The notes beneath the pieces were generated by a model. That model was given only the letters and a program-made list of their open reading frames with translations, was not told the origin of the DNA and made no database searches. A stretch of 64,000 bases of DNA from Cyanidioschyzon merolae. Lineage: Eukaryota. Positions 23,250 to 54,990 of the stretch are shown here, one piece after another. The stretch lies in NCBI GenBank assembly GCA_000091205.1, contig AP006496.2; one strand, given 5' to 3'. The position numbers and the translations under genes are program-made. The stretch's first letter is position 1; each line of letters starts with the position of its first letter.

Positions 23250-24279
23250 CACTGGTGACCGTCTCTTGTTGTAAAGGTCGACGCAAAGGCCCCGGAATGC
23301 GATGGTACACAGCTCGTGCATAGATTCTCTGTTTGATAGATCGGTTACACGGACCAAATATCCCAGGTTGAGGCTGAATATTGGCTTTCGGGAGAGCGTC
23401 CATCATGGTGCTAAATCCTACCTCCAAGTTCCATCACTCCTGCTTCCTCTCGTACGTACGAGTCATTTTATACGCTCCATCGTGCACCAAGTGCCTGCCT
23501 TGCTGCACCCGCCGTAGCGTCTATACCGCTGCAGCGGATCCAGCACAGAGACAGAACGGCTTGGTCGTACCACAAGGTTGTCGGCTCGTAGTGTCGTTTA
23601 TCCGACACGGGATCACAGGACATCATCATGCAGGGAGCCTGCAAGCTGTGCATATGGATGTACCGCCTGCTGTAGCGCGAACCGATATACTAGGCGTCCA
23701 CAGCGACCAGGGCGGCGACACGCAGACGCAGCATACCTGGCCCTAGTCCCAGCATAAGCAGCGTTTCAGACGAGTTGCTCAGATCTCACGACAGCACTAG
23801 ACGCTTGGCGCGAACACGAACCACGAGCCCGGTATTCTCGTCCGGCTTACGGGACCTTCCGTCTCTGAGATAATCTTTCGACAATACAGAGACCTTTTCC
23901 CCCTTTTAACGCGTACCGTACGCCTGGAATGAAATTTTTATCGATTGACGAGTTCGTGATTCGTTTCTGTGCTTGCCCGTCTCGTGCGTAGGTGCGTCGC
24001 GCACGCATCGGTCAAGAATCTCGATGGCAACGCTGCGAGATCGCGGCAACAGGCACGCCGTTCCAGCCACGTGGCGCTCTGTCCAGCGACGGAGGCACGT
24101 GCTGTCCGCGATCGCCGCATCCCCGGCAGATACGCGGACACGCCGCCCGCGTCCATCGTCAAATCGACGTCGAAGAAAAGCGCCCTGGACGCACGCACGA
24201 GGGGTTCTCGGATGCCGCGTATCACCCGGCCGGTGGCGCGATGCGTGACGTCGCCTCCGTCGAGCACCGGAAATTGCAA

Positions 24280-29512: not shown

Positions 29513-32500
29513 TCAACGATGCTCCTGTCCACAGCTTGCGTCGCTCGCGTAGCCGTCGAGAACACCTCGATACGTGCTCGTTTCAAAACGGAACATGCCA
29601 TAAGCGGAGCCCTGTTGTTGTAGCGTTTGCAGAGATGTCTCCAGCGGCACCGAACTCGCGTGAACCGCTGAACGTGCCCACTGTGCGCTGGGGTCGTGCT
29701 GTACCGGCCTTCCCGCGGCGTCTTTCGGATGTATGGTCGAGCACATGTTTCGTCCCTGAAACATTTGACCTGCAGCTTGCTTCTGCTCAGTGATTCCGTT
29801 CGATGCAATGCGACCGATCGACGGCAGACGAGGAATACCTGCTTTCGAAGCAGGGCAGTCTCGCCGCTTATGGCCGATTTTGCCGCAAGCAAAACAAGTG
29901 ATCCTCGCGGAACGATGTGATACACCGGCAACGACTCCCTCCGGAGCGCTTTTTTCGATGATACTGGTGCCCGCGGGCGCAGCCGCTTGTTCTGTCGCAG
30001 ACTCGCGACCCGAGTGCTTATCAGCACCGTTCCTGTCGGGAAGCGCGGCATGCTGTTGCATTGCTGCACGTTCTTCCGACGACGACGACGACGACGCGAC
30101 GTTTCCCTCGGAGCGCTGCGTCCTTTTCGCGTCCGTGGTGTCGTCCTGGGGAAACGCTCGTTTCCGCCGCGGAATATACGGCACAGCGGATACATCCACC
30201 AGCATAGCGGATGTCACCGATGCAGAAGCCGGCACCTGCTGACCCCCTGCTGCTGGTGTCTCGCGATTCATGTCGTCGTCGCCGTCGTCCCAGGCGGTGA
30301 GGAGAAGCTTGGCGGCGGCGTCGACGGCCGCCCCGGTATCCTCTTCCGCTGAAACTGATCGTCGACGAGGCCCTAGGGCTTTTCTGATCCCCGCAATCTG
30401 CTCGGTAATGTGTTGCAACGAGGCAGCACGGCGATGCTCAACCGCCTCCATCGCCTGTTGTTCGTCGAGCGCGCTGGCGAAGGGTCCCCCGCTGATCCAA
30501 CCGCTGCACGAGGCTGCTTGACAGAGGCATCGAATCGGAACAGAAGCGTCGCTCTCATTAAGATCCAGGTCGCGACGCGGTGATACCCGCTGCAACAGCG
30601 ACGTCTCCTCGGCGGCAGCAGCAGCAGCAGCGCGTCTCTCCATTCGGTAGTCGAAGGTGAGCTCCTCGCCAGCCGCGATATCACGACTGGCAAAGATACC
30701 GACGCGAACTTTGCCAAGCACGAGCCATTTCTGCGTGTGGCAGTTCGGCTCGCACGAGTGGTTCAGAAACCGACCCCAGGTTCCTTTGCGACTTGCATCG
30801 AGAAACGTGCTCTGGTCAAGCGTCATGAAATAGACATGTCGTTCGAGGGCGTGATCGCGCTTCCGGCGAGCAAGTTCCGTCGGGCCAATCACTTCACCCA
30901 TGTACTCCACGATAAAGTCACCTTTCTTGAGCGGCGCTCGGCTGCGGATACCACAACCACGGCCGTTTGGACTGAAGAAGAGCTCCACGGGAGCATAGGC
31001 TTGTCGCTGGAATCGCATGTTGCCACATTGCGGATCCGTACTGCTCCGCGACCGAGCAACTGGGCATGTCGCCGGATTGCATTCCACGCACACAGTGCTG
31101 TTCAGGCAGACTCCGGGTACGCATGCTCCAATGCACTGACACACATCGGCATGTGCTGGTGCAACGGACGGTGGAACCAGATACTCGTTCGCCGTTAAAT
31201 GGATAAACGGTGACGGTTTCCCGTCATCCGTATCCAGCATCCGCTGCTTCCTGTCCTCGAGAATGGCCAGTCGGTAGGAGAGCAGCGTATACCAGCTACG
31301 CTCGCCAAAGTCTCCAGCGGACAAACGGGACCAGTCCCAGTCTGGCAGTCGGAGACAAGTGGAAGGCTCAGCGGCGTCAGGTGCTGTCGACGGCCTTTCC
31401 TGCGACACGTCTACTGCTTCTACACTGGTGTGGAGAGGGTGCAAGCCCGCTGCAACCGACGCCTCCCGTCGCCGATTCTCCAATCCGTGGAGGAGCACCA
31501 TGTAGGCAGCGCGATCGTCGGTATTGGTCAGGCGTCCAGCGACAAGCGGCAGTCGCCGGAGAACCGCCAGTAGTCGATCGAGTCCGCGGCGACTGGAGAA
31601 GCCCAAGGCATTGCAGACTCGTTGCAGAAACAGCTCGGACGATTCGCGCAAACAGGCTACGTGGCAGCTGGCCAGAAAGCGCATCACCGCTGGGAAGAAG
31701 GCATCTCGAACGACGCGCATCGTCTGTTGTGCAAGGGCGTCTTCGGTGAGAGTCTCGTCGCTGGACGAATCCTCGATGTCGTCTTCGCGCAGGCCCTCTG
31801 TCAGCAGTTCCCAGAGACGCCTCAGCAGGTCTGCCCAGGTCGATACTGCACTCGCTTCGCTGAGCGCTCGAAGCAGGAGCTTGGAATCCGCACAACACAG
31901 ACGGGTGAAGGTCTCCAAAAGTTGATGCCTGAGGGTGCTTGCGCCGTAGCGCTCCAGCTGCCGGGCCGAACTGGTGCCCCAGGCCTCCTTGCAGATCTTC
32001 TGGCAGTGCAGAAGCAGCGTGTACCCGCTGTTGGGCAACCAACACAGCTCCTGGGCAGCTACAAGATCAGGCCAGATGCGCACCATCGCCCAGAGCGCCG
32101 GATCGACCTCATCAGTCTCACCTCGGAGTCGTTCTTGATCGCTGCGGCTCAGCGAGTCAAGTAATCTCTCCACTGAGTAGAGACGGAAGAAGTGTTGCGC
32201 AATCCGCAGATCCGAGACCACAACCGAAAGCGCCGCCAGGTCGGAGTCGGTCATGAGCATCCAGCCACCCAGCAATAGCCGCAGATGCTCGTCGAGTTCC
32301 TCCGCGAGTCGCTCTCCCATGACGCTTTTCGGACTCGTGGAGGACTCCTGCTGGAGCAGGTCAACCCAATCGAGTACGGTCACGAGATGCTTTTGCATGA
32401 ACGCAGGCGACGGGAGGAGCGCCTCCAGAACGCCACGAGCCAGGGAAGCGTTCCGCTCTTGCCCAGAGGTCGCAGGTGGAAGCGCTCGTTGCTCCTTCGC

Positions 32501-33577
32501 CAGGTCACGGATTGCAGTATCGAGAAGATTTGATGCAGTAATGAACAAATTCAAAGCGATGAAAGAGGGATCGCCCAGGGTCTGCGGTACTTTCAGATGC
32601 TCCGCAGCGCCACTGGATGCATCGGTTACCAGCCTCGACGATTTCTCTGGGCTCGTCATCCGTTCCTCTTGCGGTGCGCGTGCGGCTTTTCGGGCAGCAC
32701 CAACCAAGTCATGCAAGCGCTCGCAGATGTATGCCTGCAGCGTCGGAAGCAGTTCGCCGCGCCTCTGCAGGCAGGCAAGCAAGTGCTTTGTCTCTGGGTG
32801 CTCGCCATCACAGAGAAAAGTGACTGTCGAGAGCAGCTCTGCGAATACAGCTTCTGGCAATGCGGGCTGTTGCACAGTTACCCCAGCGGACGGCAATGAT
32901 ATCGCGTTGAGGCGCTGTGAGCGCTGCGCCCGACACTCGTGGACAATGAGTTCCAGCAAGTCAACGCGGTCGAGACACGGTGATACTTGAAAGCAGACCG
33001 CATCTGTTGTCAAGTCGATCTTCAGCAGTGAGGCATAGAGCGTGAAGTCATTGAGCGCGAACAACTCCACTAGTTTTTTTGCAGCTTCTTGCCAGTCCGA
33101 GCGCTGCAGCAGCACCTCGTCGAGGCTTTGGGTATTCGGTGCGAGCACGGGGACGCTTTCAGCGTTAGGGCCAGGAGAGCGCCTCTGGGACAAAAGTTCA
33201 GCTGCAAAACAAGGACGTGTCGGTTGCTGTGGCGAACTCGACACCGAGCCCGTACACTCTGGAGCGTGACCATTGGTTACCGAAACCGTGCCGTTTTTGC
33301 ACCCTAGGGTTTCAGTCTTTTTCCGTTCGTCCGCGATAGCTGTGGGAAACTCCTGGGAACCACAGCGCAAGTGAACGTTACGAAGCGGATAACTTGCTTC
33401 TTTCCCAAAAAGCCGCAGCTTAATCCAGATCTCACCGTCACGTTCTCGAATGGATTGGACGGTGCCGCTCTCCCAGAGTCCTTCTGCGGTGCGTACCTCG
33501 ACGCAGCGACCTCGCTTCAGCCAAACTGGAAGCGCTACGGCAGCGTCAGTCGGGGTTGACGTTTTGCGCCCCAGCAT
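29513..33577 (-). CDS. SET-domain histone-lysine N-methyltransferase (SET2/NSD/ASH1-like: AWS-SET-postSET) with N-terminal Tudor/chromo-barrel-like domain and C-terminal CCHC zinc knuckle
   Basis: About 1355 aa. SET core GRGCGIRSRAPLKKGDFIVEYMGEVI...RFLNHSCEPNCHTQKW...ELTFDY. Preceding AWS Cys cluster (CQCIGACVPGVCLNSTVCVECNPATC). Post-SET RCLCQAASCSGW. N-terminal PVWLKRGRCVEVRTAEGLWESGTVQSIRERDGEIWIKLRLFGKEASYPLRNVHL resembles a Tudor-knot/chromo-barrel. CFACGKIGHKRRDCP is a CCHC knuckle. Track ORF starts at GTG 33622. First in-frame ATG at 33577. Confidence 0.75.
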   Translation of the reverse strand: MLGRKTSTPTDAAVALPVWLKRGRCVEVRTAEGLWESGTVQSIRERDGEIWIKLRLFGKEASYPLRNVHLRCGSQEFPTAIADERKKTETLGCKNGTVSVTNGHAPECTGSVSSSPQQPTRPCFAAELLSQRRSPGPNAESVPVLAPNTQSLDEVLLQRSDWQEAAKKLVELFALNDFTLYASLLKIDLTTDAVCFQVSPCLDRVDLLELIVHECRAQRSQRLNAISLPSAGVTVQQPALPEAVFAELLSTVTFLCDGEHPETKHLLACLQRRGELLPTLQAYICERLHDLVGAARKAARAPQEERMTSPEKSSRLVTDASSGAAEHLKVPQTLGDPSFIALNLFITASNLLDTAIRDLAKEQRALPPATSGQERNASLARGVLEALLPSPAFMQKHLVTVLDWVDLLQQESSTSPKSVMGERLAEELDEHLRLLLGGWMLMTDSDLAALSVVVSDLRIAQHFFRLYSVERLLDSLSRSDQERLRGETDEVDPALWAMVRIWPDLVAAQELCWLPNSGYTLLLHCQKICKEAWGTSSARQLERYGASTLRHQLLETFTRLCCADSKLLLRALSEASAVSTWADLLRRLWELLTEGLREDDIEDSSSDETLTEDALAQQTMRVVRDAFFPAVMRFLASCHVACLRESSELFLQRVCNALGFSSRRGLDRLLAVLRRLPLVAGRLTNTDDRAAYMVLLHGLENRRREASVAAGLHPLHTSVEAVDVSQERPSTAPDAAEPSTCLRLPDWDWSRLSAGDFGERSWYTLLSYRLAILEDRKQRMLDTDDGKPSPFIHLTANEYLVPPSVAPAHADVCQCIGACVPGVCLNSTVCVECNPATCPVARSRSSTDPQCGNMRFQRQAYAPVELFFSPNGRGCGIRSRAPLKKGDFIVEYMGEVIGPTELARRKRDHALERHVYFMTLDQSTFLDASRKGTWGRFLNHSCEPNCHTQKWLVLGKVRVGIFASRDIAAGEELTFDYRMERRAAAAAAAEETSLLQRVSPRRDLDLNESDASVPIRCLCQAASCSGWISGGPFASALDEQQAMEAVEHRRAASLQHITEQIAGIRKALGPRRRSVSAEEDTGAAVDAAAKLLLTAWDDGDDDMNRETPAAGGQQVPASASVTSAMLVDVSAVPYIPRRKRAFPQDDTTDAKRTQRSEGNVASSSSSSEERAAMQQHAALPDRNGADKHSGRESATEQAAAPAGTSIIEKSAPEGVVAGVSHRSARITCFACGKIGHKRRDCPASKAGIPRLPSIGRIASNGITEQKQAAGQMFQGRNMCSTIHPKDAAGRPVQHDPSAQWARSAVHASSVPLETSLQTLQQQGSAYGMFRFETSTYRGVLDGYASDASCGQEHR

Positions 33578-33934
33578 CAGGTGGGCCCGCGAGCATGAAG
33601 CAACCCACGAATACGTATACACAAACCGCTACTCTGGAGAGCGTCTCGTTAATCAGGACGCTGCAAAGGCACCCCAGGGATCTGCCGAGTCGATGTTCGA
33701 AAAGCCAAGGATAGAGTGGATTCCTGCGAGGCCGACGTACGCCTCAGCGTGTCGGGGCGTGGCGGAGCATAGCCACGTTTGGCGCCACTACCATGGAATG
33801 AAGCCAAAATCCAGCTCCTCCATGTGTCTCAGATTCGAGGAGATCATTGAACTGTTCGTTCTGTTTCCGATTTTGTATTTTTCAGCTCTTGTTTTAGTTG
33901 TACAGCCTTGACATTCAAAGCGTGGCGATGAGAG

Positions 33935-35130
33935 GTTAGGGATGCATACGTCGTTCTAGGATTCGTGGTTGAATTTGTTTTTCGGAATGGCACAGATGAC
34001 CCTCGATCACTGGAATCGGTTACGTCATGCGAATCGTGGTGATTCGCGGAAGCTCGCAAAGAATGGTTCGTAAAATGAGCGACAAAATTAATGGATTCAT
34101 CAATACGGGCCTCTATGAGTCTTTTCTTCTTACGTGTAGCATGTTCAAATCACGCATTCTTCAAGTTTTTTACGGTCTTCCTGGTCCACGGCAACTCGCG
34201 GGTGCAGCTGCTCGCGCGTCGCTCCGGATTACCGCGGATCAAATCGTACAGTCTTGCATTGACGACCGCTGTTCAAGCCTATCCCGAAAGTTGATGGAAC
34301 TTGGCAGGTCGAATAATCGATGCTGTCGAAAAACAAATTCTCCAGTCTTTCTGAATACCCACGAAACTGCATTCCATAGCAGTAGGATACCAGTCGCGGG
34401 ATCTGCTCGCAGCGGCTTCTGTCACTTCTCTTTGCACGGTAAAGCGCCCTGGACTCGCGCTTGCGTCATCGGGGCGATCGCTTCTGGCGGAGAATGCGTC
34501 AGCGCTTTGCGTGAAGGCAGCGCTGTCGGATCGGAGTTTCTCGACTTGATTTCCATCCCGGATTTTCGTCCCGTTCATTGTTTCATCATGAACAACATCG
34601 CGTTCCGACAATCCTCCATGGAATGGAACAGCGTGCGCTTGCGTGCGCAGCTGACGGAAGACTCTCCGAGGATATCTCGCAGATAGAGCTTGTGATCCTG
34701 GGGTACAGCACCGAGCGCGGAAACGGAGTAAAGCATGTAGGGAAACCTTCTCTACCCGTCCAGGGCACGTACCGTGCAGTGAAACATGCGCTCATGTGCC
34801 AGAGAACGGCCGTTGGTAGAGAAAGTATTGCGGATACATTTGGGCACTTGACCTCCACCGAGTGTCACTGCTGCGCAGGACACACCGAGGGTACCATGCA
34901 AAGAAGAAGGCGATGGGAAAAGGATCGCAGATCTCAGCTTCCGTCCGCGCAAGCGATGCATTCCTACCAACCGAACGTGGCGAAACTGGGGCTTGATCGC
35001 TGCGATCAAGCCTCAGTTTCTGCTGCTCTGCAAGGATGAAAAAATAGCTTGAACGTTGCGGTCGTCTACAAAGTGCCAAGTTGCTTCCTGCAGGCACAGC
35101 ATCTAAAACTTTGCATAGAGTACTGACCAG
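33935..35130 (+). mobile_element. Family-2 compact TnpB-like element, decayed copy A, about 1.2 kb, in the SET-gene promoter region
   Basis: 5-prime terminus ...agaggttagggatgcatacgtcgttctaggattcg nearly identical to copy C (aggggcttaggaatgcatacgtagtttccggattctcg). Frame-b remnants ISQIELVILGYSTERGNGVK (RuvC-II-like, Glu retained), TYRAVKHAL and GHLTSTECHCCAGH (TS..C..C zinc finger). The track ORFs 34027-34686 and 34578-35039 are in different frames, so a frameshift is present. Confidence 0.55.
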
Positions 35131-37046
35131 CGCGCTGAACCCGGCAAATGTTCCTGCAGCAGCGCTCCGCGCGGAATCGATACACAGCCGCACGCCATTC
35201 GCCTGCTACTGCGCCTAACCTTCGACCAGAGCAGTGTGTCTATTGTTCGCATGCGAATCACTGCTCGCAGACGGAGAACCTGGTGCAGCATCCCGACTGG
35301 AATCGACGGTCGGACTGCGCGGTGCTGAACCTGCGGGTACAATTTTGTCCGTACATACAGTCCATGGACAAAGCGCGTGTCGTGGAGCGTGCGAGCGCCT
35401 TGACGCCGTCGCGCGCTGGCGAATCAACGTATCCGTTCGTAGGGCTCGGTTGGCCCAGTTCGAGAGTGTTCACTACACGAGGCGAATCGCAGTCTCGGAC
35501 CAGTCGCTGCGTTCGCCAACGCTCGGCCTGGGAATCCGCAGCGACACTGCGACGCCATGCTGTCGCTGGAACGGAGGATCGTGTGGGCGGACCACTATCC
35601 CCGAATCAATGCTTGGATAACGGTAAAGAGGACTGGGAGGATTTGGTGCGCCATGTAGGCTTGCTTCCCGGATGCCGATAACCATCACATCATTGGGGAT
35701 CAGAGGTTAGATTCCAAAATCCTACACCATTAGGAATCACACTCGCGGTCCTGAGCACTTGGTAACCATCCGACACTCGGGGATTCCTCGTTAGATTCAA
35801 CAATGCTCTACCATGACGTCTTCCTATTGCTGGGTTCCGCCTGCGTTCGCCCGGGCGCCTCGCCGTGCTCCAGATGATCGATCATGGCGGAGCGTGCCAG
35901 CTGGAATCATCGCGAGGTATCGTGCCAGGCCCCAATATTACCTTGTGTGTCAAAGGCGGCACCGCGACGCGCACCAGCGACAGAGCCTGCAGCAAGAGAT
36001 TACTCTACGTGAGCTTCCGAGCTACGACACCTGATTTTCGCTGCAGTGCGATGCGAACACGCACGTGCGAGTGCGGGGTGTCGGACACGTGTCCTTCATC
36101 GATCGGTGAGGCGTCTCGCGCGGTGCACGCAGTGCGCTAAGTGAGCGTTCCTGGGAGATCAGGCAGGCATAAGACACGACGCGCGTGCCGCCGCTGAAGG
36201 GAAACGCGATCCTGATCTCTGGTGTGTTGTTCAGCTGTAAAAGTTGTATTCGCGCTGGAGTCGAACAAAAATATAGTTTTCAGTTCGTTTTTGTTTCAAA
36301 CTTCAAACAAGTCTAGTCAAATGTTTTTTCGCAGTATATAACAGAAGGGTTTAAAGAGCGTTCAAGAAATATAAAAATAAAAAAACGGAAAAAGGAACGC
36401 TATGAAAAAGCAAATGCACGATCCTGGAGGCCCAGGTTCGCCGGCTGCCAGAAAAAAATAGTGCCGAGTCCAGAAGAAAAGGAAGAGAAGAAGGACCGAA
36501 AGGCGGAGGTCCTACGTCGAAGGCGGCAAGAAAGACGACTGTACGACGAGATGGTGGTGAAAACCTTTCTTCTTGGACATATCAAGGATCCGTACAGGGA
36601 AAAGTTGCGAGACGCTATCGAAAAACGTGTTGCGTCATACTCCAAGAATATTATAAAGGCGTCGTCAGGACTGATGCATTTAGCAAGGGAGATGTACGAA
36701 GACGTCGCGAACATGGAAACGGTCGAGATTCCAGACGAGTTTTTCGACAAACCTTTATTCGTCAGCTGATGCTTGGCACAGGGGAAGTGCGGAGGGAAAA
36801 TGAGCGGGTGCGCGCCCTCCACGAAAAATATCCCTTTTACAGCTTCAATGGTACTCGATACAAGGGTGACCGGGGTATTTACGGCTACGGGGCGATGAAG
36901 TACCCCACGAACCTGAAGAACCATTTGACAGAGAACTTCGAACGTTTCATGGTACGCGCCGTGTTTGCGCTGTATCCGGACATCTCTCGCAATGGAAAAT
37001 GGGCGATGATCAACGGCATCACGAGCGATCGCAAGCATGAAGATGA

Positions 37047-38618
37047 GGTCGAATTTGTCGACAAGAAAGCGCCAAACGAGAACACGAATGAAGCTTCTGT
37101 AATCCGTGCGGTTATACAAGAGCATCGTGCGGTACTGGGGCTGGCGTATCCAACAGACAAGATATCAGCGTTGAAAAAGATAAGGAAAGATACTATCGCC
37201 TCATCCTGCGATATTTCGTGTTTCTGGACCGAGAGCTCGAACGCAAGGCAGAAACGAAGCTAAGTGAAGGAAAAAATGAAGAGTGGGAGAGACGGAAGGC
37301 TGCCCTAATGGGGAAGCGCTTCGATGTGGTTCCAGTGTGCAAGATCAAGTCACATTTTGTGACTATCGACTCCGGCGTCCTCTACGGCATCATGAGGGAC
37401 ATCAGTCCGGAGTTCAGTGTCAGCAGGGAGAACTTCACCGGCGAAAACCGGGAGACGTACTTGAAGAACATCTCCAATTTCAAACGTCTGAGAGTGAACA
37501 AGCAAAAGTTGTTCACTGGGATGATCGAAACCGATGGAGTAGCCTTGTGTGTACACTATCGGCGGTTGAAGAAAGATCGGCCAGTTCCGCCCTCGGCTGC
37601 GCCCGTGACGAAGGGTGCAGAAAAGAAAGAGGCGGATCCTGAGACGCAGGAGGTGGAGGATAACGACTTTGTCGTTGAAGTGACGAAGGATGAAGATGAG
37701 AAGGAGGCGGATCCTGCGACACAGAAGGTGCAAGATAACGACCTTGTCGTTGATGCGGCGAAGGATGAAGATGAGAAGGAGGCGGATCCTGAGACGCAGG
37801 AGGTGGAGGATAACGACTTTGTCGTTTGCGCGGACCCTGGGAACACGAATATCATCACCATCGCAGCACCGAAGCGTGCGGAAGATGGTACTGATGGTAA
37901 CGTACGTCAGAAAGACATGCGAGTTTTGAGGATCTCGAGAGCGAGATACTATCGAGAATCGGGAATAATGAATGCGAGGAAGAAAATTGCTACATGGAAT
38001 GCAGGAATGAAGGATCACCTGGAAGCTTTGAGTGAGGTGACTAGCCGAAGAGCGGACTTTCAAGCTTTTCGGAAATTCATGGAAGTTTGCATTGTCCATT
38101 GGGATGCACTGTGGGAGGAGTATACCAAGGCCCGGTGGGCTCGTTTGCGTATGAATTTGTATTGTGGGAAGCAGCGGGGGTTCGCGAATTTATTCAATAA
38201 CTTGAGCGCCTTGAAGGAGGATGAAAATCAGAGGCTCGTCGTAGCATACGGAGCAGGGCGCTGGAAGACCCAAAAAGGGACTACTCCAGCTCCAACGACA
38301 AGAACATACAGGGAGTGCGCACGGCGTTTCGTTACGATACCTGTAGATGAGTTCCGAACGTCCTATGCACACCATGAACTGGGTTGTACACTTCAGAGAG
38401 TCGAGATGGAAAAGTGCCAGAGGAGCGCTGAGGAAATAGCAAAGTACGGACCGCTGACGGAGGCGCAAACGGAAAGGAGTGCGAAAGTTCGTGGACTACT
38501 CGCTTTAGTGAGTATAACTCCGGACGGGAAGAAACGTATGGAGTTTGTGAACCGAGATTTTAATGCCGCAATCAATCTACGGAAATGTGCGGTACTGGAC
38601 AAGAGACCTCCAGAGTAG
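37047..38618 (+). CDS. Intact C-terminal about 520-aa portion of the Fanzor/TnpB-like protein containing the split RuvC-like nuclease and zinc-ribbon motifs
   Basis: RuvC-I-like [17 protein letters not shown] (Asp in ADPG, about nt 37824-37845). RuvC-II region [17 protein letters not shown]...TRTYREC lacks the canonical Glu, as reported for Fanzor1 proteins with a relocated glutamate (from memory). RTS zinc-ribbon region [13 protein letters not shown]...EMEKC at about 38355. Ruv[18 protein letters not shown] at about 38550 (TnpB DRDxNAAxNI). Stop at 38616-38618. Confidence 0.7.
37626..37826 (+). repeat. 75-bp (25-aa) tandem repeat x2.7 inside the Fanzor ORF, immediately N-terminal to the RuvC-I motif
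   Basis: Protein repeat [25 protein letters not shown] / [25 protein letters not shown] / [22 protein letters not shown]. The nucleotide unit ggcggatcctgagacgcaggaggtggaggataacgactttgtcgtt... recurs with a 75-nt period. Confidence 0.8.
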
Positions 38619-38750
38619 ACAAGAGAGAACTTTATTGGACAACCTCTCAAAGTCGAACTATATGAGAAAATGTTGGAAGCAGTAGTGGGTGGCCGGTCCA
38701 AAAAGACGGGCAGGCGTCTGCACATCAGTCAGAGACGATTTGTCTAAGGC
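38560..38750 (+). ncRNA. Candidate omega-RNA / right-end region of the Fanzor element (3-prime end of ORF plus about 130-nt conserved tail)
   Basis: By analogy with TnpB/Fanzor systems, the guide-RNA scaffold overlaps the ORF 3-prime end and the transposon right end. This tail (ggacaacctctcaaagtcgaactatatgagaaaatgttggaagcag...ggtggccggtccaaaaagacgggcaggcgtctgcacatcag) is conserved in the second family-1 fragment at 54860-54990, although that copy's coding sequence is destroyed. Confidence 0.3.
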
Positions 38751-38843
38751 GCGTTCGCCGCCATTACTGTACGCCGCCGACGTCGTTCGACTCTCGAAAG
38801 GCGTTTAGTCGTGGCGACAAGTCTGCAGTTCCAGTTGCAAGCA

Positions 38844-39122
38844 ATGGGCAAACGCACACGGAAAGTGGGCATCTGCGGCAAGTACGGTACGAGGTATGGA
38901 GCGTCACTGCGAAAAACCGTGAAGAAGATGGAAATCACCCAGCACGCCAAGTACACGTGTCCGTTTTGCGCGAAGGATGCAGTGAAGCGGAAGGCAGTCG
39001 GCGTATGGGAGTGCAAGCGCTGTCGGAAGCGGATAGCTGGTGGCGCCTGGGTCCTGAACACCACCGCAGCGGCAACAGTGCGCACGACGATTCGTCGTCT
39101 GCGCGAGACCGTGGAGCAGTGA
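38844..39122 (+). CDS. RPL37A: 60S ribosomal protein L37a (eL43)
   Basis: [88 protein letters not shown] matches eL43 almost residue for residue, including the C4 zinc ribbon. ATG at 38844. The track ORF starts at an upstream GTG at 38811. Confidence 0.9.
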
Positions 39123-40669
39123 GGCTGTTCGGAGAAGGACAACGAGCACTGGGTGGCGTCTTGGATGAAAGTCGGCGAGGATGTGTCTAGTTCAAGGCGA
39201 ATGCGGCCTGTGCTGGGAGCACTAGCTAATTCGTATCGCCTACGCGCGGTTCGCTTGGTAATGAACGCCACGAGATAGCAGCGTGAGGTATGCAGCGCGT
39301 TCGACACCCAACGAGAGTGCTCCGAGTGAGCGCGCGCGACCTCTCGAGCTTGTACTGTGGGCACTTGTCGAATTGATATTCGGAGTGGCACGCCGCCACG
39401 CGCATCACTTGGAGATTACTGGTCCTGTGTGGTGATACGTTTCGCATGCCGCTTTGAGTGTAGCGTGCGCCTGTCGAGCGTCCACCGTTCGTAAGGTGTT
39501 GCGCGAGATAAGAGTCCCGCGCATTCCGCCCGCTAGAGCTTGATTATCCGATGATACATGAACGACTAGCTTGTCGAAACGTTAGCGGTAAAGAAGCGAG
39601 TATCTAGCGTACAAGACGCGTGTAGCTTTTCGCTCCTAAACACTGTACGCAGTAAAGAGCGCACGGCTTGGTGTCAGTCTCGAGCGCATGAACGACCACA
39701 GTGTTCTTCGATGGTTTGTGTAAAACTGGGCCCGCCTGAAAGGACAGCGATCTACGACACGATTAGCATCCGCGGACGCCTGGTCAGAGCGATCGGGATG
39801 CCTGTGGAAACGCGTACTTGCCGACGTTTGCAGGCGCTCACGGGCGGCCTCGGTGGCAGGGGCGAAGATCGAGCCCCTGCATCGATGATGCGTCATGCTT
39901 CTCTGCAGACGATTTAGATGCAGTCAAATGGGACTCGGCATCGAAACTGTCGTTACCTGCTGACTAGGTTGCCACAGCACGTAAGCAAACCTGCCGGCAA
40001 CCCCGGTGTGCGCCTTGCCGCGAGTGCTCACTTTTGAATGACTGCTGCGAGCCTGTGTTCGCTACAGGGCGCGACTACCCAGAGTCGCCCGGCACCAGTG
40101 CGTGTGCTCGTGACGACAGCAGCGCTGAACGCAGGTGATTGAGATTTGCTTACCTACCGGCTCGCTGAGCACATCGATTCACTGGACATGCGCGAACGAA
40201 GAGCTTTTCACGTGAAGCTACCATATCTCCCTGAGCGGATATGGCTTTCTGTCTGGACTGTGCAGAGGCAGCGGCGCCAAGTACGTTGCACTCGGATGCT
40301 CGCACGCTGCTGTTGCAACGCTGCAGGCACGCCAGAACTGCCACTACGGAGATACAGCATGCGATGCGCGGTTCTCGATACGTCCGATGATGACGCAGTT
40401 GTAGGTATCGCCCAGAACACGTGGTGGCTTTCCGAGCTCAGTCCATCGTCATGCTCCAGTGCGCATGGATTATCATGCAGCCGGGAGCCATAAAATGGAG
40501 CGCGAGACTGCGATGAACGCTTGCTACAGTGCTGAATGTGTTGCCACTGTCGCCGCACGGAAACAGCGCAAGTCGTCGTGTCGATGCTGGGGCCCACACG
40601 AAAGGCCGGATCGTAATGCGAGCGAGCGCAGCCCCGCGTTAGATGGTTAAACACATGTCAGACTAGAAT

Positions 40670-54534: not shown

Positions 54535-54990
54535 AAACTTACGGGAATGGAAGTGAAGGATCCTGGAGGCCGTCATCGCCGGATGCCAGAGAAAAAGGAC
54601 GAAAATTTCGATCTTCTCGCCGACCATCGAGGGAGAAGTGCAAGTGACGAAGAAGAAGAAGAACAGGGTAGGTAGATGACAAAAGATGTTTGTCCGACAG
54701 GATGATGACGAGACTGTAGTCGAATAGAGGCCACGAGTTCTGGCAATCCTTGCGATGGTGAGTTCAACCAGAGGCAATGCACGCATGGAGATCGTGAACT
54801 TTGACTTTAACGCCACCATCAATACCAGACGATGTGTGGTGCTGAAGACGACTGCTGACGATATGAGGCCATCTATGTTTGTTGGGAAACCTCTCAGATG
54901 CGAAGTGTGCTAGGAGAAACTGAAAACGGCTGCAGGCGGCCAGTCAAAAAAGGCCGGGAGGCGTCTGAGAGGGAGTATATTTCTTTACAC
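54535..54990 (+). mobile_element. Family-1 (Fanzor1-like) 3-prime-terminal fragment, degraded: C-terminal coding remnant plus conserved 3-prime tail
   Basis: The frame containing ...AILAMVSSTRGNARMEIVNFDFNATINTRRCVVL...stop (54911-54913) aligns with the intact copy [34 protein letters not shown]. An upstream in-frame stop and frame changes are present (VIAGCQRKR versus ELGCTLQRV; RMPEKKDEN versus [10 protein letters not shown]). The tail ggaaacctctcagatgcgaagtgtgctaggagaaactgaaaacgg...ggcggccagtcaaaaaaggccgggaggcgtctgagagggag matches 38640-38745 of the intact element. AT-richer than the flanks. Confidence 0.55.

What the first reader, a model, noticed from the sequence alone, without database searches (positions are those of the whole stretch)
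36230..38750. Near-complete Fanzor (eukaryotic TnpB-like RNA-guided nuclease) element in an AT-rich island just upstream of RPL37A
An abrupt AT-rich island of about 2.5 kb sits in otherwise GC-rich DNA. It carries one long plus-strand reading frame of about 720 aa. The C-terminal 520 aa show, in the order expected for TnpB/Fanzor: RuvC-I-like [15 protein letters not shown], a RuvC-II region [10 protein letters not shown] without the canonical Glu (the Fanzor1-type rearrangement, as I recall it), an RTS zinc ribbon ([13 protein letters not shown]...EMEKC), and Ruv[18 protein letters not shown] (TnpB DRDxNAAxNI). The N-terminal half is broken into three frames by two 1-nt shifts, one of them at a poly-A run. 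This is either a recently inactivated copy or an intact gene with homopolymer assembly errors. The element ends only about 95 bp upstream of the eL43 start codon.
Basis: partly seen in the sequence, partly recalled or inferred. Interest (0 to 1): 0.85.

Follow-up and report, generated by a model that had tools for sequence, protein, structure and literature searches.

The report
Dead Fanzor1 transposon copy, red alga

Summary
The + strand of window 36402-38618 does carry a Fanzor1 reading frame. A profile built from its homologues matches the solved Fanzor1 proteins PpFz (E=1e-17), SpuFz (3e-13) and GtFz (4e-3). An AlphaFold model of the 466-aa ORF (pLDDT 79) finds the same three as its best structural matches (E down to 6e-13). 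The RuvC-I Asp (37833), the relocated Glu in DEFRTS (38349) and the RuvC-III Asp (38556) are invariant across 71 homologues.

The eL43 protein is identical to that of C. merolae 10D. Bao and Jurka (2013) already described this family there: CMe-1A, about 150 copies, about 3 kb, no TIRs or TSDs.

This copy is dead. It has three frameshifts, not two, and an in-frame TAG that cuts off a conserved 42-codon tail. Its 5' module is also shortened by about 330 bp. Independent metagenome contigs of the same locus share the A5 frameshift and the TAG, so at least these two defects are not assembly errors.

Comparison with paralogues puts the element at 35904-38806, ending 38 bp before the eL43 ATG. I found no evidence for a structured omega RNA.

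The parts
35904..38806 (+). Whole repeat-defined element copy (CMe-1-type Fanzor1 element), about 2.9 kb and 5'-truncated.
   Evidence: BLASTN against 80 paralogous loci that have unrelated flanks. The right end is sharp at 38803-38806. The left end is at 35900-35904 for 8-9 loci of the same subfamily and at 36134-36158 for the rest.
35904..36157 (+). Subfamily-specific 5' module, GC-rich (0.60), truncated. Full-length relatives (L070, L011, L025, L007) run about 330 bp further left.
36158..36401 (+). 5' leader shared by nearly all copies. It includes the AT-rich stretch (GC 0.36 for 36230-36460). A promoter or 5' UTR role is presumed but untested.
   Evidence: Mean identity between copies is 0.74, the same as third codon positions.
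36402..38618 (+). Fanzor1 pseudogene. It gives a 739-codon reading frame once the three frame breaks are repaired.
   Evidence: The reconstruction aligns without interruption across all three repaired sites with the near-intact paralogue P0001 (76% identity over 97% of its length) and with 600-700-aa homologues.
36451..36458 (+). Frame break 1, in a hypervariable A-rich tract. The copy is 7-8 nt shorter than the family consensus AG-A7/8-C-A6-CAG.
   Evidence: The tract length varies among copies, and some copies are in frame (L070, L003, L023, L022).
36749..36752 (+). Frame break 2: loss of G from the consensus GACAAGACC (codons D-K-T).
   Evidence: It is unique to this copy among the 30 copies aligned.
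37174..37178 (+). Frame break 3: A5, where the family consensus has A6.
   Evidence: It is shared by the independent same-locus contigs L001 (99.56% identity, no gaps) and L016.
37605..37826 (+). 75-bp x 3 tandem repeat inside the ORF. The unit encodes 25 acidic residues and lies just before RuvC-I.
   Evidence: TRF. These residues, 127-189 of the model, are disordered with pLDDT below 50. Copy number is 2-4 in paralogues, and distant homologues lack the repeat.
37833..37835 (+). RuvC-I catalytic Asp (in the DPG motif).
   Evidence: Invariant in the 71-sequence alignment (D206 of the ORF). It aligns with the DPGRRD and DPNKRD motifs of PpFz and SpuFz.
38244..38252 (+). Canonical RuvC-II position (A-Y-G), with no Glu.
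   Evidence: Replacement of this Glu by Gly or Pro is the Fanzor hallmark (PMC10530073).
38349..38351 (+). Relocated catalytic Glu (in DEFRTS).
   Evidence: Invariant E378. It aligns with DEFRTS of PpFz and DEYKTS of SpuFz.
38556..38558 (+). RuvC-III catalytic Asp (in [10 protein letters not shown]).
   Evidence: Invariant D447. It aligns with NRDQAAVLN of PpFz and NRDMLSTCN of SpuFz.
38616..38618 (+). In-frame TAG, premature relative to the family.
   Evidence: Paralogues carry TGG, TCG or TTG here, and 9 of 30 copies also carry TAG. It is present in the independent contig L001.
38619..38747 (+). Conserved C-terminal tail (TRENFIGQPL...GRRLHISQRRFV, then TAA), cut off from the ORF by the TAG.
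   Evidence: It aligns with the tail of distant intact homologues (RPxxLTRxNFxG...GRxIKR).
38748..38806 (+). 3' non-coding end with a terminal hairpin (GTTCGA 38785-38790, loop CTC, TCGAA 38794-38798), followed by GGCGTTT. By analogy with other Fanzors this is where the omega RNA scaffold would end. That is not shown here.
   Evidence: The end sequence is conserved across copies. There is no covariation, no stability signal and no extra conservation.
38845..39123 (+). Neighbouring gene RPL37A (eL43). It is not part of the element.
   Evidence: Pfam E=7e-40. The protein is identical to C. merolae 10D XP_005537420.1.

Best explanation
Window 35904-38806 is one decayed, 5'-truncated copy of the CMe-1 repeat family of the Cyanidioschyzon merolae nuclear genome. 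The family is a non-TIR DNA element of about 3 kb whose only gene is a Fanzor1.

Fanzor1 proteins are TnpB-like RuvC nucleases. In the characterised members (SpuFz, PpFz, GtFz) the protein binds an omega RNA transcribed from the 3' end of the element and cuts DNA that matches the guide.

In this family the protein was under purifying selection while the family diversified. This particular copy can no longer make it. The frame is broken three times, an in-frame TAG removes the conserved C-terminal tail, and the 5' module is shortened. It is therefore a transposon fossil lodged 38 bp upstream of the eL43 start codon.

Shown here: Fanzor1 homology and fold, conservation of the catalytic triad, multi-copy status, the boundaries, the defects, and the fact that at least two defects are real rather than assembly errors.

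Inferred only: RNA guidance by an omega RNA from the 3' end, and how the family moved.
For: - Fanzor1 identity. The profile of the homologues matches PDB chains PpFz 9cf0 (E=1.1e-17), SpuFz 8gkh (3.2e-13) and GtFz 9cer (4e-3), with the DPG, DEFRTS and NRDxNAAxN motifs aligned. The AlphaFold2 model has pLDDT 79 and pTM 0.70, with the RuvC region above 90. Its top Foldseek matches are SpuFz, PpFz and GtFz (E from 6e-13 to 3e-8), followed by Cas12o and Cas12f. D206, E378 and D447 are invariant in 71 homologues.
- Host genome. The eL43 protein is identical to that of C. merolae 10D.
- Prior description. Bao and Jurka 2013 list one Fanzor1 family in C. merolae: CMe-1A, about 150 copies, about 80% identical to the consensus, about 3 kb, with no TIRs and with TSDs they could not determine. 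Its 5' 635 bp equals TE-N2_CMe. This agrees with what I see: 265 related stretches and 80 loci, a 5' module of about 700 bp in the major subfamily, and no TIRs.
- Defects. The A5 frameshift and the TAG are also present in independent metagenome contigs of the same locus (L001 at 99.56% identity without gaps, and L016).
- Past selection on the protein. dN/dS between paralogues is 0.24-0.56. Identity between copies is 0.85, 0.88 and 0.77 at codon positions 1, 2 and 3, against 0.74-0.78 in the non-coding parts.
- Lineage-specific insertion. The syntenic SET-gene-to-eL43 spacer is 1.55 kb and lacks the element in Cyanidiococcus yangmingshanensis, against 5.2 kb here.
Against: - Neither Pfam-A nor NCBIfam recognises the window ORFs. 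Single-sequence phmmer against the PDB also finds no Fanzor. Homology is visible only with profiles or structure.
- The Cys4 zinc ribbon typical of TnpB and Fanzor is degenerate in this clade.
- There is no evidence for an omega RNA. Rfam gives nothing. The fold z-score is -1.2. RNAalifold gives -10 kcal/mol with no covariation. The 3' end is no more conserved than synonymous sites.
- Frame breaks 1 and 2 are not covered by any independent contig.
- I could not align the copy to the Repbase CMe-1A consensus itself, so identity with that named family rests on genome, copy number, length and architecture.
Confidence: 0.93

Rival explanations
1. The gene is intact and functional, and the frame breaks are homopolymer errors in the assembly.
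For: All three breaks lie in or next to A-rich runs, and each is repaired by adding one base.
Against: The A5 break and the TAG recur in independently assembled metagenome contigs of the same locus (L001 with no gaps, and L016). Break 2 is loss of a G, not a change in run length. Break 1 is a 7-8-nt difference from the consensus. A nonsense codon is not a homopolymer artefact. From my own knowledge, not tested here, the C. merolae 10D reference is a finished Sanger assembly. Nearly all of the 80 paralogous loci are similarly broken.
Confidence: 0.03
2. The locus still makes a useful product. Candidates are a truncated protein starting at Met 37308 (436 aa), a full-length protein made by transcriptional slippage or ribosomal frameshifting at the A runs, or only the omega RNA or a promoter for eL43.
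For: The 466-aa ORF retains all three catalytic residues. A7 and A5 tracts can be slippery. The element ends 38 bp from the eL43 ATG, so eL43 upstream control sequence must overlap it.
Against: Break 2 is not at a slippery run. The A-tract length varies freely among copies, as expected for neutral decay. A protein starting at 37308 would lack the whole N-terminal half, which is conserved in all homologues. There is no conserved RNA structure. No expression data are available.
Confidence: 0.04
3. It is a bacterial or archaeal IS200/IS605 TnpB, present through contamination or recent horizontal transfer, rather than a eukaryotic Fanzor.
For: The RuvC motifs are shared with TnpB. The ends carry subterminal hairpins and lack TIRs and TSDs, as in IS200/IS605.
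Against: The only sequence-profile matches in the PDB are eukaryotic Fanzor1 proteins, with no TnpB at E<=10. NCBIfam, which models prokaryotic families, gives nothing. The element sits between conserved eukaryotic genes whose order is preserved in another red alga. It is present in dozens of diverged copies in the same genomes. The repaired N-terminus carries a basic, NLS-like stretch. No TnpA-like ORF is present.
Confidence: 0.01

Closest known systems
Fanzor1 family CMe-1 / element CMe-1A of Cyanidioschyzon merolae (Bao and Jurka 2013, Mobile DNA 4:12, PMC3627910)
   Same: It is in the same genome (eL43 identical to strain 10D). It is a Fanzor1-type protein. It is multi-copy with about 80% identity between copies, is about 3 kb long, and has no TIRs and no recognisable TSDs. 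The 5' part is a separate module that also occurs alone (TE-N2_CMe). A solo copy of that module lies at window 23343-23974.
   Different: Nothing essential differs. This copy belongs to a minor subfamily whose 5' module differs from the TE-N2-like one, and that module is truncated by about 330 bp. I could not align it to the Repbase consensus directly.
Structurally and biochemically characterised Fanzor1 nucleases: SpuFz1 (8gkh), PpFz1 (9cf0), GtFz1 (9cer)
   Same: They share the same fold (Foldseek E from 6e-13 to 3e-8). They share the same catalytic layout: Asp in DPG, no Glu at the canonical RuvC-II site, a relocated Glu in D-E-x-x-T-S, and Asp in N-R-D. The C-terminal RPxxFSR-like tail is also shared.
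   Different: Sequence identity is only 12-18%. The Cys4 zinc ribbon is lost here. An acidic 25-aa x 3 repeat is inserted before RuvC-I. No omega RNA has been shown. This copy is a pseudogene.
Bacterial TnpB of IS200/IS605 (e.g. ISDra2) and Cas12f
   Same: They share the RNase-H-like RuvC core. The element has no TIRs or TSDs and has hairpins near both ends.
   Different: There is no TnpA. The glutamate is relocated. The protein is much larger (about 740-780 aa against about 400). It has an NLS-like N-terminus and sits in a eukaryotic nuclear, multi-copy context. TnpB is not detected by sequence profile, and only Cas12f/Cas12o are found by fold, at much weaker scores.
DDE_3 (Tc1/mariner/IS630-type) transposase plus Fanzor1 gene pairs in contigs that look like giant viruses
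   Same: These Fanzor proteins are the nearest intact relatives outside the red-algal copies: about 35% identity over the full length, with the same invariant residues. One divergent red-algal copy (L047) keeps a decayed DDE_3 remnant in the same upstream position.
   Different: The window copy and most CMe-1 copies have no transposase remnant and no TIRs.

Membership tests
Fanzor1 (eukaryotic TnpB-like RNA-guided nucleases) | Significant sequence homology to established Fanzor1 proteins | tested here: met
   The profile of alignment A1 matches PpFz1 at E=1.1e-17, SpuFz1 at 3.2e-13 and GtFz1 at 4e-3, and these are the only PDB matches. Single-sequence and Pfam/NCBIfam searches were negative.
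Fanzor1 (eukaryotic TnpB-like RNA-guided nucleases) | RuvC (RNase-H-like) fold resembling the solved Fanzor structures | tested here: met
   The AlphaFold2 model has pLDDT 79, with the RuvC part above 90. The top seven Foldseek PDB matches are all Fanzor chains, with TM (query) 0.43-0.53. I could not measure the geometry of the three catalytic residues.
Fanzor1 (eukaryotic TnpB-like RNA-guided nucleases) | Catalytic triad with Asp (RuvC-I), a non-acidic residue at the canonical RuvC-II site plus a relocated Glu, and Asp (RuvC-III) | tested here: met
   D206, E378 and D447 of the ORF are invariant in 71 homologues. The canonical site reads A-Y-G. The criterion is taken from PMC10530073.
Fanzor1 (eukaryotic TnpB-like RNA-guided nucleases) | Zinc-ribbon / TNB domain (CxxC...CxxC; Pfam PF07282) | tested here: not met
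   The window ORF gives no PF07282 hit. The ligand positions read HHELGC ... LALVS. Only distant members score: P0045 at 1e-6 and P0041 at 0.0085. The domain fold is probably kept, but the metal ligands are lost in this clade.
Fanzor1 (eukaryotic TnpB-like RNA-guided nucleases) | Associated structured omega RNA overlapping the 3' end of the gene and the element end, with the guide taken from the flank | tested here: inconclusive
   There is no Rfam match, the z-score is -1.2, there is no covariation, and the 3' end is not conserved beyond the neutral level. Small-RNA data are needed.
Fanzor1 (eukaryotic TnpB-like RNA-guided nucleases) | RNA-guided DNA cleavage activity | not testable with these tools
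   This needs biochemistry with a repaired or consensus protein.
Fanzor1 (eukaryotic TnpB-like RNA-guided nucleases) | An intact, expressible gene at this locus | tested here: not met
   There are three frame breaks and a premature TAG. Two of these defects are confirmed in independent contigs.
CMe-1A repeat family of C. merolae (Bao and Jurka 2013) | Located in the C. merolae genome, multi-copy, about 80% identity, about 3 kb, encoding a Fanzor1 | tested here: met
   eL43 is identical to strain 10D. There are 265 related stretches and 80 loci at 59-98% amino-acid identity. Full-length copies are 3.2-3.35 kb.
CMe-1A repeat family of C. merolae (Bao and Jurka 2013) | No TIRs; the 5' ~635 bp is identical to the separate repeat TE-N2_CMe | tested here: inconclusive
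   The absence of TIRs is confirmed. The TE-N2-like module heads the major subfamily and occurs alone at window 23343-23974. The window copy carries a different 5' module, so it may be a sister subfamily. I had no access to the Repbase consensus.
IS200/IS605 (TnpA + TnpB) | Y1 HUH transposase TnpA, or its trace, with subterminal LE/RE hairpins and a defined target motif 5' of the LE | tested here: not met
   No TnpA-like ORF is present and NCBIfam gives nothing. Hairpins exist near both ends, but no conserved left-flank motif is seen.
Tc1/mariner/IS630 (DDE_3) elements carrying Fanzor1 | DDE_3 transposase gene, TIRs and a TA target-site duplication | tested here: not met
   There is no DDE_3 similarity in the window element and there are no TIRs. 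Only L047 and the virus-like relatives have DDE_3 next to the Fanzor gene.

The most novel reading that the evidence does not exclude
CMe-1 may be a distinct way of carrying a Fanzor. In this reading, a DDE_3 (Tc1/mariner-like) plus Fanzor1 unit of the kind still intact in giant-virus-like genomes lost its transposase and TIRs in Cyanidiales. It kept spreading with interchangeable 5' modules, a fixed 3' end carrying a hairpin, and recurrent right-flank motifs (GTTTCCAGGGGT, GTTGTCGCTGCC). That pattern would point to single-strand, rolling-circle or Fanzor-guided homing mobility. It would also suggest that near-intact masters, such as the P0001 locus, are still active. A lesser variant is that the fossil's 3' end now supplies the eL43 promoter.
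Probability: 0.12. Interest if true: 0.45.

Novelty: already known. Interest (0 to 1): 0.15.

Why it matters
It matters little. The result confirms that a Fanzor1 can be recognised from raw sequence by its RuvC motifs even where Pfam and NCBIfam fail. It also adds some detail to a family described in 2013: exact ends for this copy, two kinds of 5' module, evidence of past purifying selection on the protein, and a link to DDE_3-plus-Fanzor pairs in virus-like contigs. It does not reveal a new kind of system, and this copy is not a usable nuclease gene. The family might interest people looking for thermo- and acid-tolerant Fanzors, but only through a consensus or a near-intact paralogue.

Tried and rejected
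- Direct family searches. Pfam-A and NCBIfam scans of the three window ORFs found no TnpB, OrfB or Fanzor family. Single-sequence phmmer against the PDB gave only noise.
I used the native 466-aa ORF instead.
- Omega RNA. Rfam returned only a chance MIR156 match. The single-sequence fold was not significant. RNAalifold on 24 non-redundant 3' ends gave a weak structure with no covariation. The apparent 'compensatory' variant of the terminal hairpin (GTTTTTC...GAAAGAC) is better explained by CpG-to-TpG decay and a shift in register, so I do not count it as covariation.
- Empty site. The orthologous spacer in Cyanidiococcus is too diverged to align, so the insertion point cannot be confirmed at base resolution.
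- Independent confirmation of frame breaks 1 and 2.
- TIR search in the window copy and in two full-length paralogues found none.
- A conserved motif on the left flank (TAM-like) was not seen.
- DDE_3 similarity inside the window element was not found.
- RIP-like or CpG depletion as the cause of the lower GC is not supported. CpG observed/expected is 1.27 in the element against 1.16 elsewhere.


Full report
**What is in the sequence**

The + strand between 36402 and 38618 carries one long coding region, split over three frames: ORFs 36461-36769, 36769-37263 and 37218-38618.

The composition change is modest. GC is 0.49 for 36230-38750 against 0.57 for the rest of the window. Only 36230-36460 is truly AT-rich, at 0.36.

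Adding one base at each of three places gives a continuous 739-codon frame from an ATG at 36402 to the TAG at 38616-38618. The places are after 36458, after 36751 and after 37178. The third joins the start codon to the first ORF.

**Homologues confirm the repairs**

P0001 (752 aa) is 76% identical over 97% of the query. More distant proteins of 600-700 aa are 22-38% identical over more than 90% of it. The alignment runs straight through all three repaired sites, for example FFDKTFIRQLMLGT and [23 protein letters not shown].

The alignment also shows that the TAG is not the ancestral end. Paralogues have Ser, Trp or Leu codons at that position, and a conserved tail continues in frame to TAA at 38745-38747.

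**Is it a Fanzor?**

Direct tests were negative. Pfam-A and NCBIfam find no TnpB, OrfB or Fanzor family in the window ORFs. Single-sequence phmmer against PDB sequences finds only noise. The precomputed Pfam label on the homologues is a domain of unknown function, PF26935/DUF8286.

Deeper tests are decisive:
- A profile of nine family members matches exactly three PDB sequences, all Fanzor1: Parasitella parasitica (9cf0, E=1.1e-17), Spizellomyces punctatus (8gkh, 3.2e-13) and Guillardia theta (9cer, 4e-3). The DPG, D-E-F-R-T-S and N-R-D-x-N-A-A-x-N motifs fall in register.
- Two distant members reach Pfam PF07282, Cas12f1-like TNB.
- An AlphaFold2 model of the native 466-aa ORF, built with a 71-sequence alignment, has mean pLDDT 79 and pTM 0.70. 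The RuvC half is above 90. Only the internal tandem repeat is disordered.
- The best Foldseek matches of the model in the PDB are seven Fanzor chains (E from 5.8e-13 to 2.8e-8, TM 0.43-0.53), followed by Cas12o and Cas12f.
- D206, E378 and D447 of the ORF (37833, 38349 and 38556) are invariant across the 71 sequences. The canonical RuvC-II position reads A-Y-G. This is the relocated-glutamate arrangement that Jiang et al. 2023 describe for Fanzors (PMC10530073).
- The one defining feature that fails is the Cys4 zinc ribbon. Its ligands are lost in this clade.

**Whose genome, and is this known?**

The neighbouring eL43 protein is residue-for-residue identical to RPL37A of C. merolae 10D, XP_005537420.1.

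Bao and Jurka (2013), the paper that named Fanzors, list one Fanzor1 family in C. merolae. They describe CMe-1A as having about 150 copies, each about 80% identical to a consensus of about 3 kb. It has no TIRs, its TSDs could not be determined, and its classification is unknown. Its first 635 bp equal another repeat, TE-N2_CMe.

Everything I see fits that description:
- A scan of metagenome contigs found 265 related stretches. The best 80 loci come from a handful of JGI metagenomes.
- Full-length copies are 3.2-3.35 kb.
- The major subfamily begins with a module of about 700 bp. That module also occurs alone at window 23343-23974.
- No TIRs are found.

**Boundaries of this copy**

Paralogues with unrelated flanks stop matching the window sharply at 38803-38806 (...CGTTCGACTCTCGAAAGGCGTTT). 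This is 38 bp before the eL43 ATG at 38845.

On the left, most copies match only from 36134-36158. Eight or nine loci of one subfamily match from 35900-35904, and among themselves they continue about 330 bp further. The window copy therefore belongs to a minor subfamily with a different 5' module, and that module is truncated.

In Cyanidiococcus yangmingshanensis the same SET-gene-to-eL43 arrangement has a 1.55-kb spacer without the element, against 5.2 kb here. The spacers are too diverged to show an empty site at base resolution.

**Are the defects real?**

- Three independent contigs of the same locus exist: L001 (99.56% identical, no gaps), L016 and L031. L001 and L016 cover the A5 frame break and carry it, and L001 also shows the TAG.
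- Against the family consensus, break 3 is A6 to A5. Break 2 is loss of a G from GACAAGACC. Break 1 is a 7-8-nt shortening of an A-rich tract whose length varies freely among copies.
- Breaks 1 and 2 are not covered by an independent contig, but neither looks like a run-length error.
- Almost all the other loci are broken too. The best is the P0001 locus, which has its own premature TAA and is out of frame with the conserved ATG.

**History of the family**

dN/dS between the surviving ORF parts of paralogues is 0.24-0.56. Identity between copies is 0.85, 0.88 and 0.77 at codon positions 1, 2 and 3, against 0.74 in the 5' leader and 0.78 in the 3' non-coding end.

Most of the divergence therefore arose while the protein was under selection. 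The nuclease mattered to the element when it was spreading, and the copies died afterwards. 'Recently inactivated' is true only in that relative sense.

**How it would work**

By homology with SpuFz, PpFz and GtFz, the intact protein would be a RuvC nuclease guided by an omega RNA made from the 3' end of the element. This step is inferred. I found no Rfam match, no unusual stability, no covariation and no conservation above the neutral level in the last 200 nt.

How the family moves remains unknown, as it was in 2013. The ends are asymmetric, with a hairpin at each terminus and no TIRs.

The nearest intact relatives, at about 35% identity, lie directly downstream of a DDE_3 transposase gene. 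Those contigs also carry D5 primase-helicase and RNA polymerase subunit genes, which is typical of giant viruses. One divergent red-algal copy keeps a decayed DDE_3 remnant in the same position. This hints at a Tc1/mariner-like ancestry, an association already reported for Fanzor1 in general.

**Verdict**

Several details need correcting:
- there are three breaks, not two;
- the zinc ribbon is degenerate;
- the boundaries are 35904-38806;
- the GC dip is modest.

The element is a fossil copy of a family already described in this genome. Novelty: already known. Interest: low.

Noticed in passing
window 23343-23974 (+): A solo copy, about 70% identical, of the ~635-700-bp module that forms the 5' end of the major Fanzor subfamily. 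This is probably the TE-N2_CMe repeat of Bao and Jurka 2013.
   Followed up: partly
window ~54584-54990 (+): A second, heavily decayed 3' fragment of a Fanzor ORF (...MEIVNFDFNATINTRRC...GRRLRGS). tblastn gives 33% identity at E=4e-7, and the family HMM gives E=6.5e-5.
   Followed up: partly
L087 4075-6869, L088 2161-4955, L090 4395-6863: Intact Fanzor1 genes of about 620 aa, about 35% identical to the window protein, lie directly downstream of a DDE_3 (PF13358) transposase gene. The contigs also carry D5_N, Herpes_ori_bp and RNA polymerase subunit genes, so they look like giant viruses.
   Followed up: partly
L047 3214-3771: The most divergent red-algal copy has a decayed DDE_3-like transposase remnant immediately upstream of its Fanzor ORF (tblastn E about 1e-8 in a small database). 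No other locus shares this upstream DNA.
   Followed up: partly
right flanks of L012/L032, L049, L073/L080, L045/L064, L024, L025; and of L039, L056, L026, L035, L077: Just past the conserved GGCGTTT end, unrelated loci share short motifs and then diverge: GTTTCCAGGGGT in about 6 loci and GTTGTCGCTGCC in about 5. This could reflect target preference, or a variable extension of the terminus that differs between subfamilies.
   Followed up: no
L065 3014-3086 and the equivalent left ends of L024, L029, L018: The left terminus of the major subfamily can form a hairpin (TTTTTCGATGACAAA / 43 nt / TTGGTTATCGAAAAA). Its first ~24 nt resemble the last ~21 nt of the right end in direct, not inverted, orientation.
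   Followed up: no
window 37605-37826: The 75-bp x 3 tandem repeat inside the ORF encodes an acidic, disordered 25-aa unit just before RuvC-I. Copy number is 2-4 among paralogues, and distant homologues lack the repeat.
   Followed up: partly
window 38616-38618 and the equivalent codon in paralogues: The same codon is TAG in 9 of 30 aligned copies and TGG, TCG or TTG in the rest. A source copy with the shortened C-terminus may therefore still have propagated.
   Followed up: no
window 34124-34783 (overlaps ORF 34027-34686, no Pfam hit): This stretch is weakly similar (about 65-68%) to DNA flanking several other Fanzor loci (L028, L006, L003, L019). It may be another dispersed repeat or a gene family.
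   Followed up: no
window 29513-33622 (-) and L083-L086: A 1369-aa SET-domain / zinc-knuckle gene lies upstream. The gene order SET - eL43 - next genes is conserved with Cyanidiococcus yangmingshanensis, while the intergenic DNA is not alignable.
   Followed up: partly
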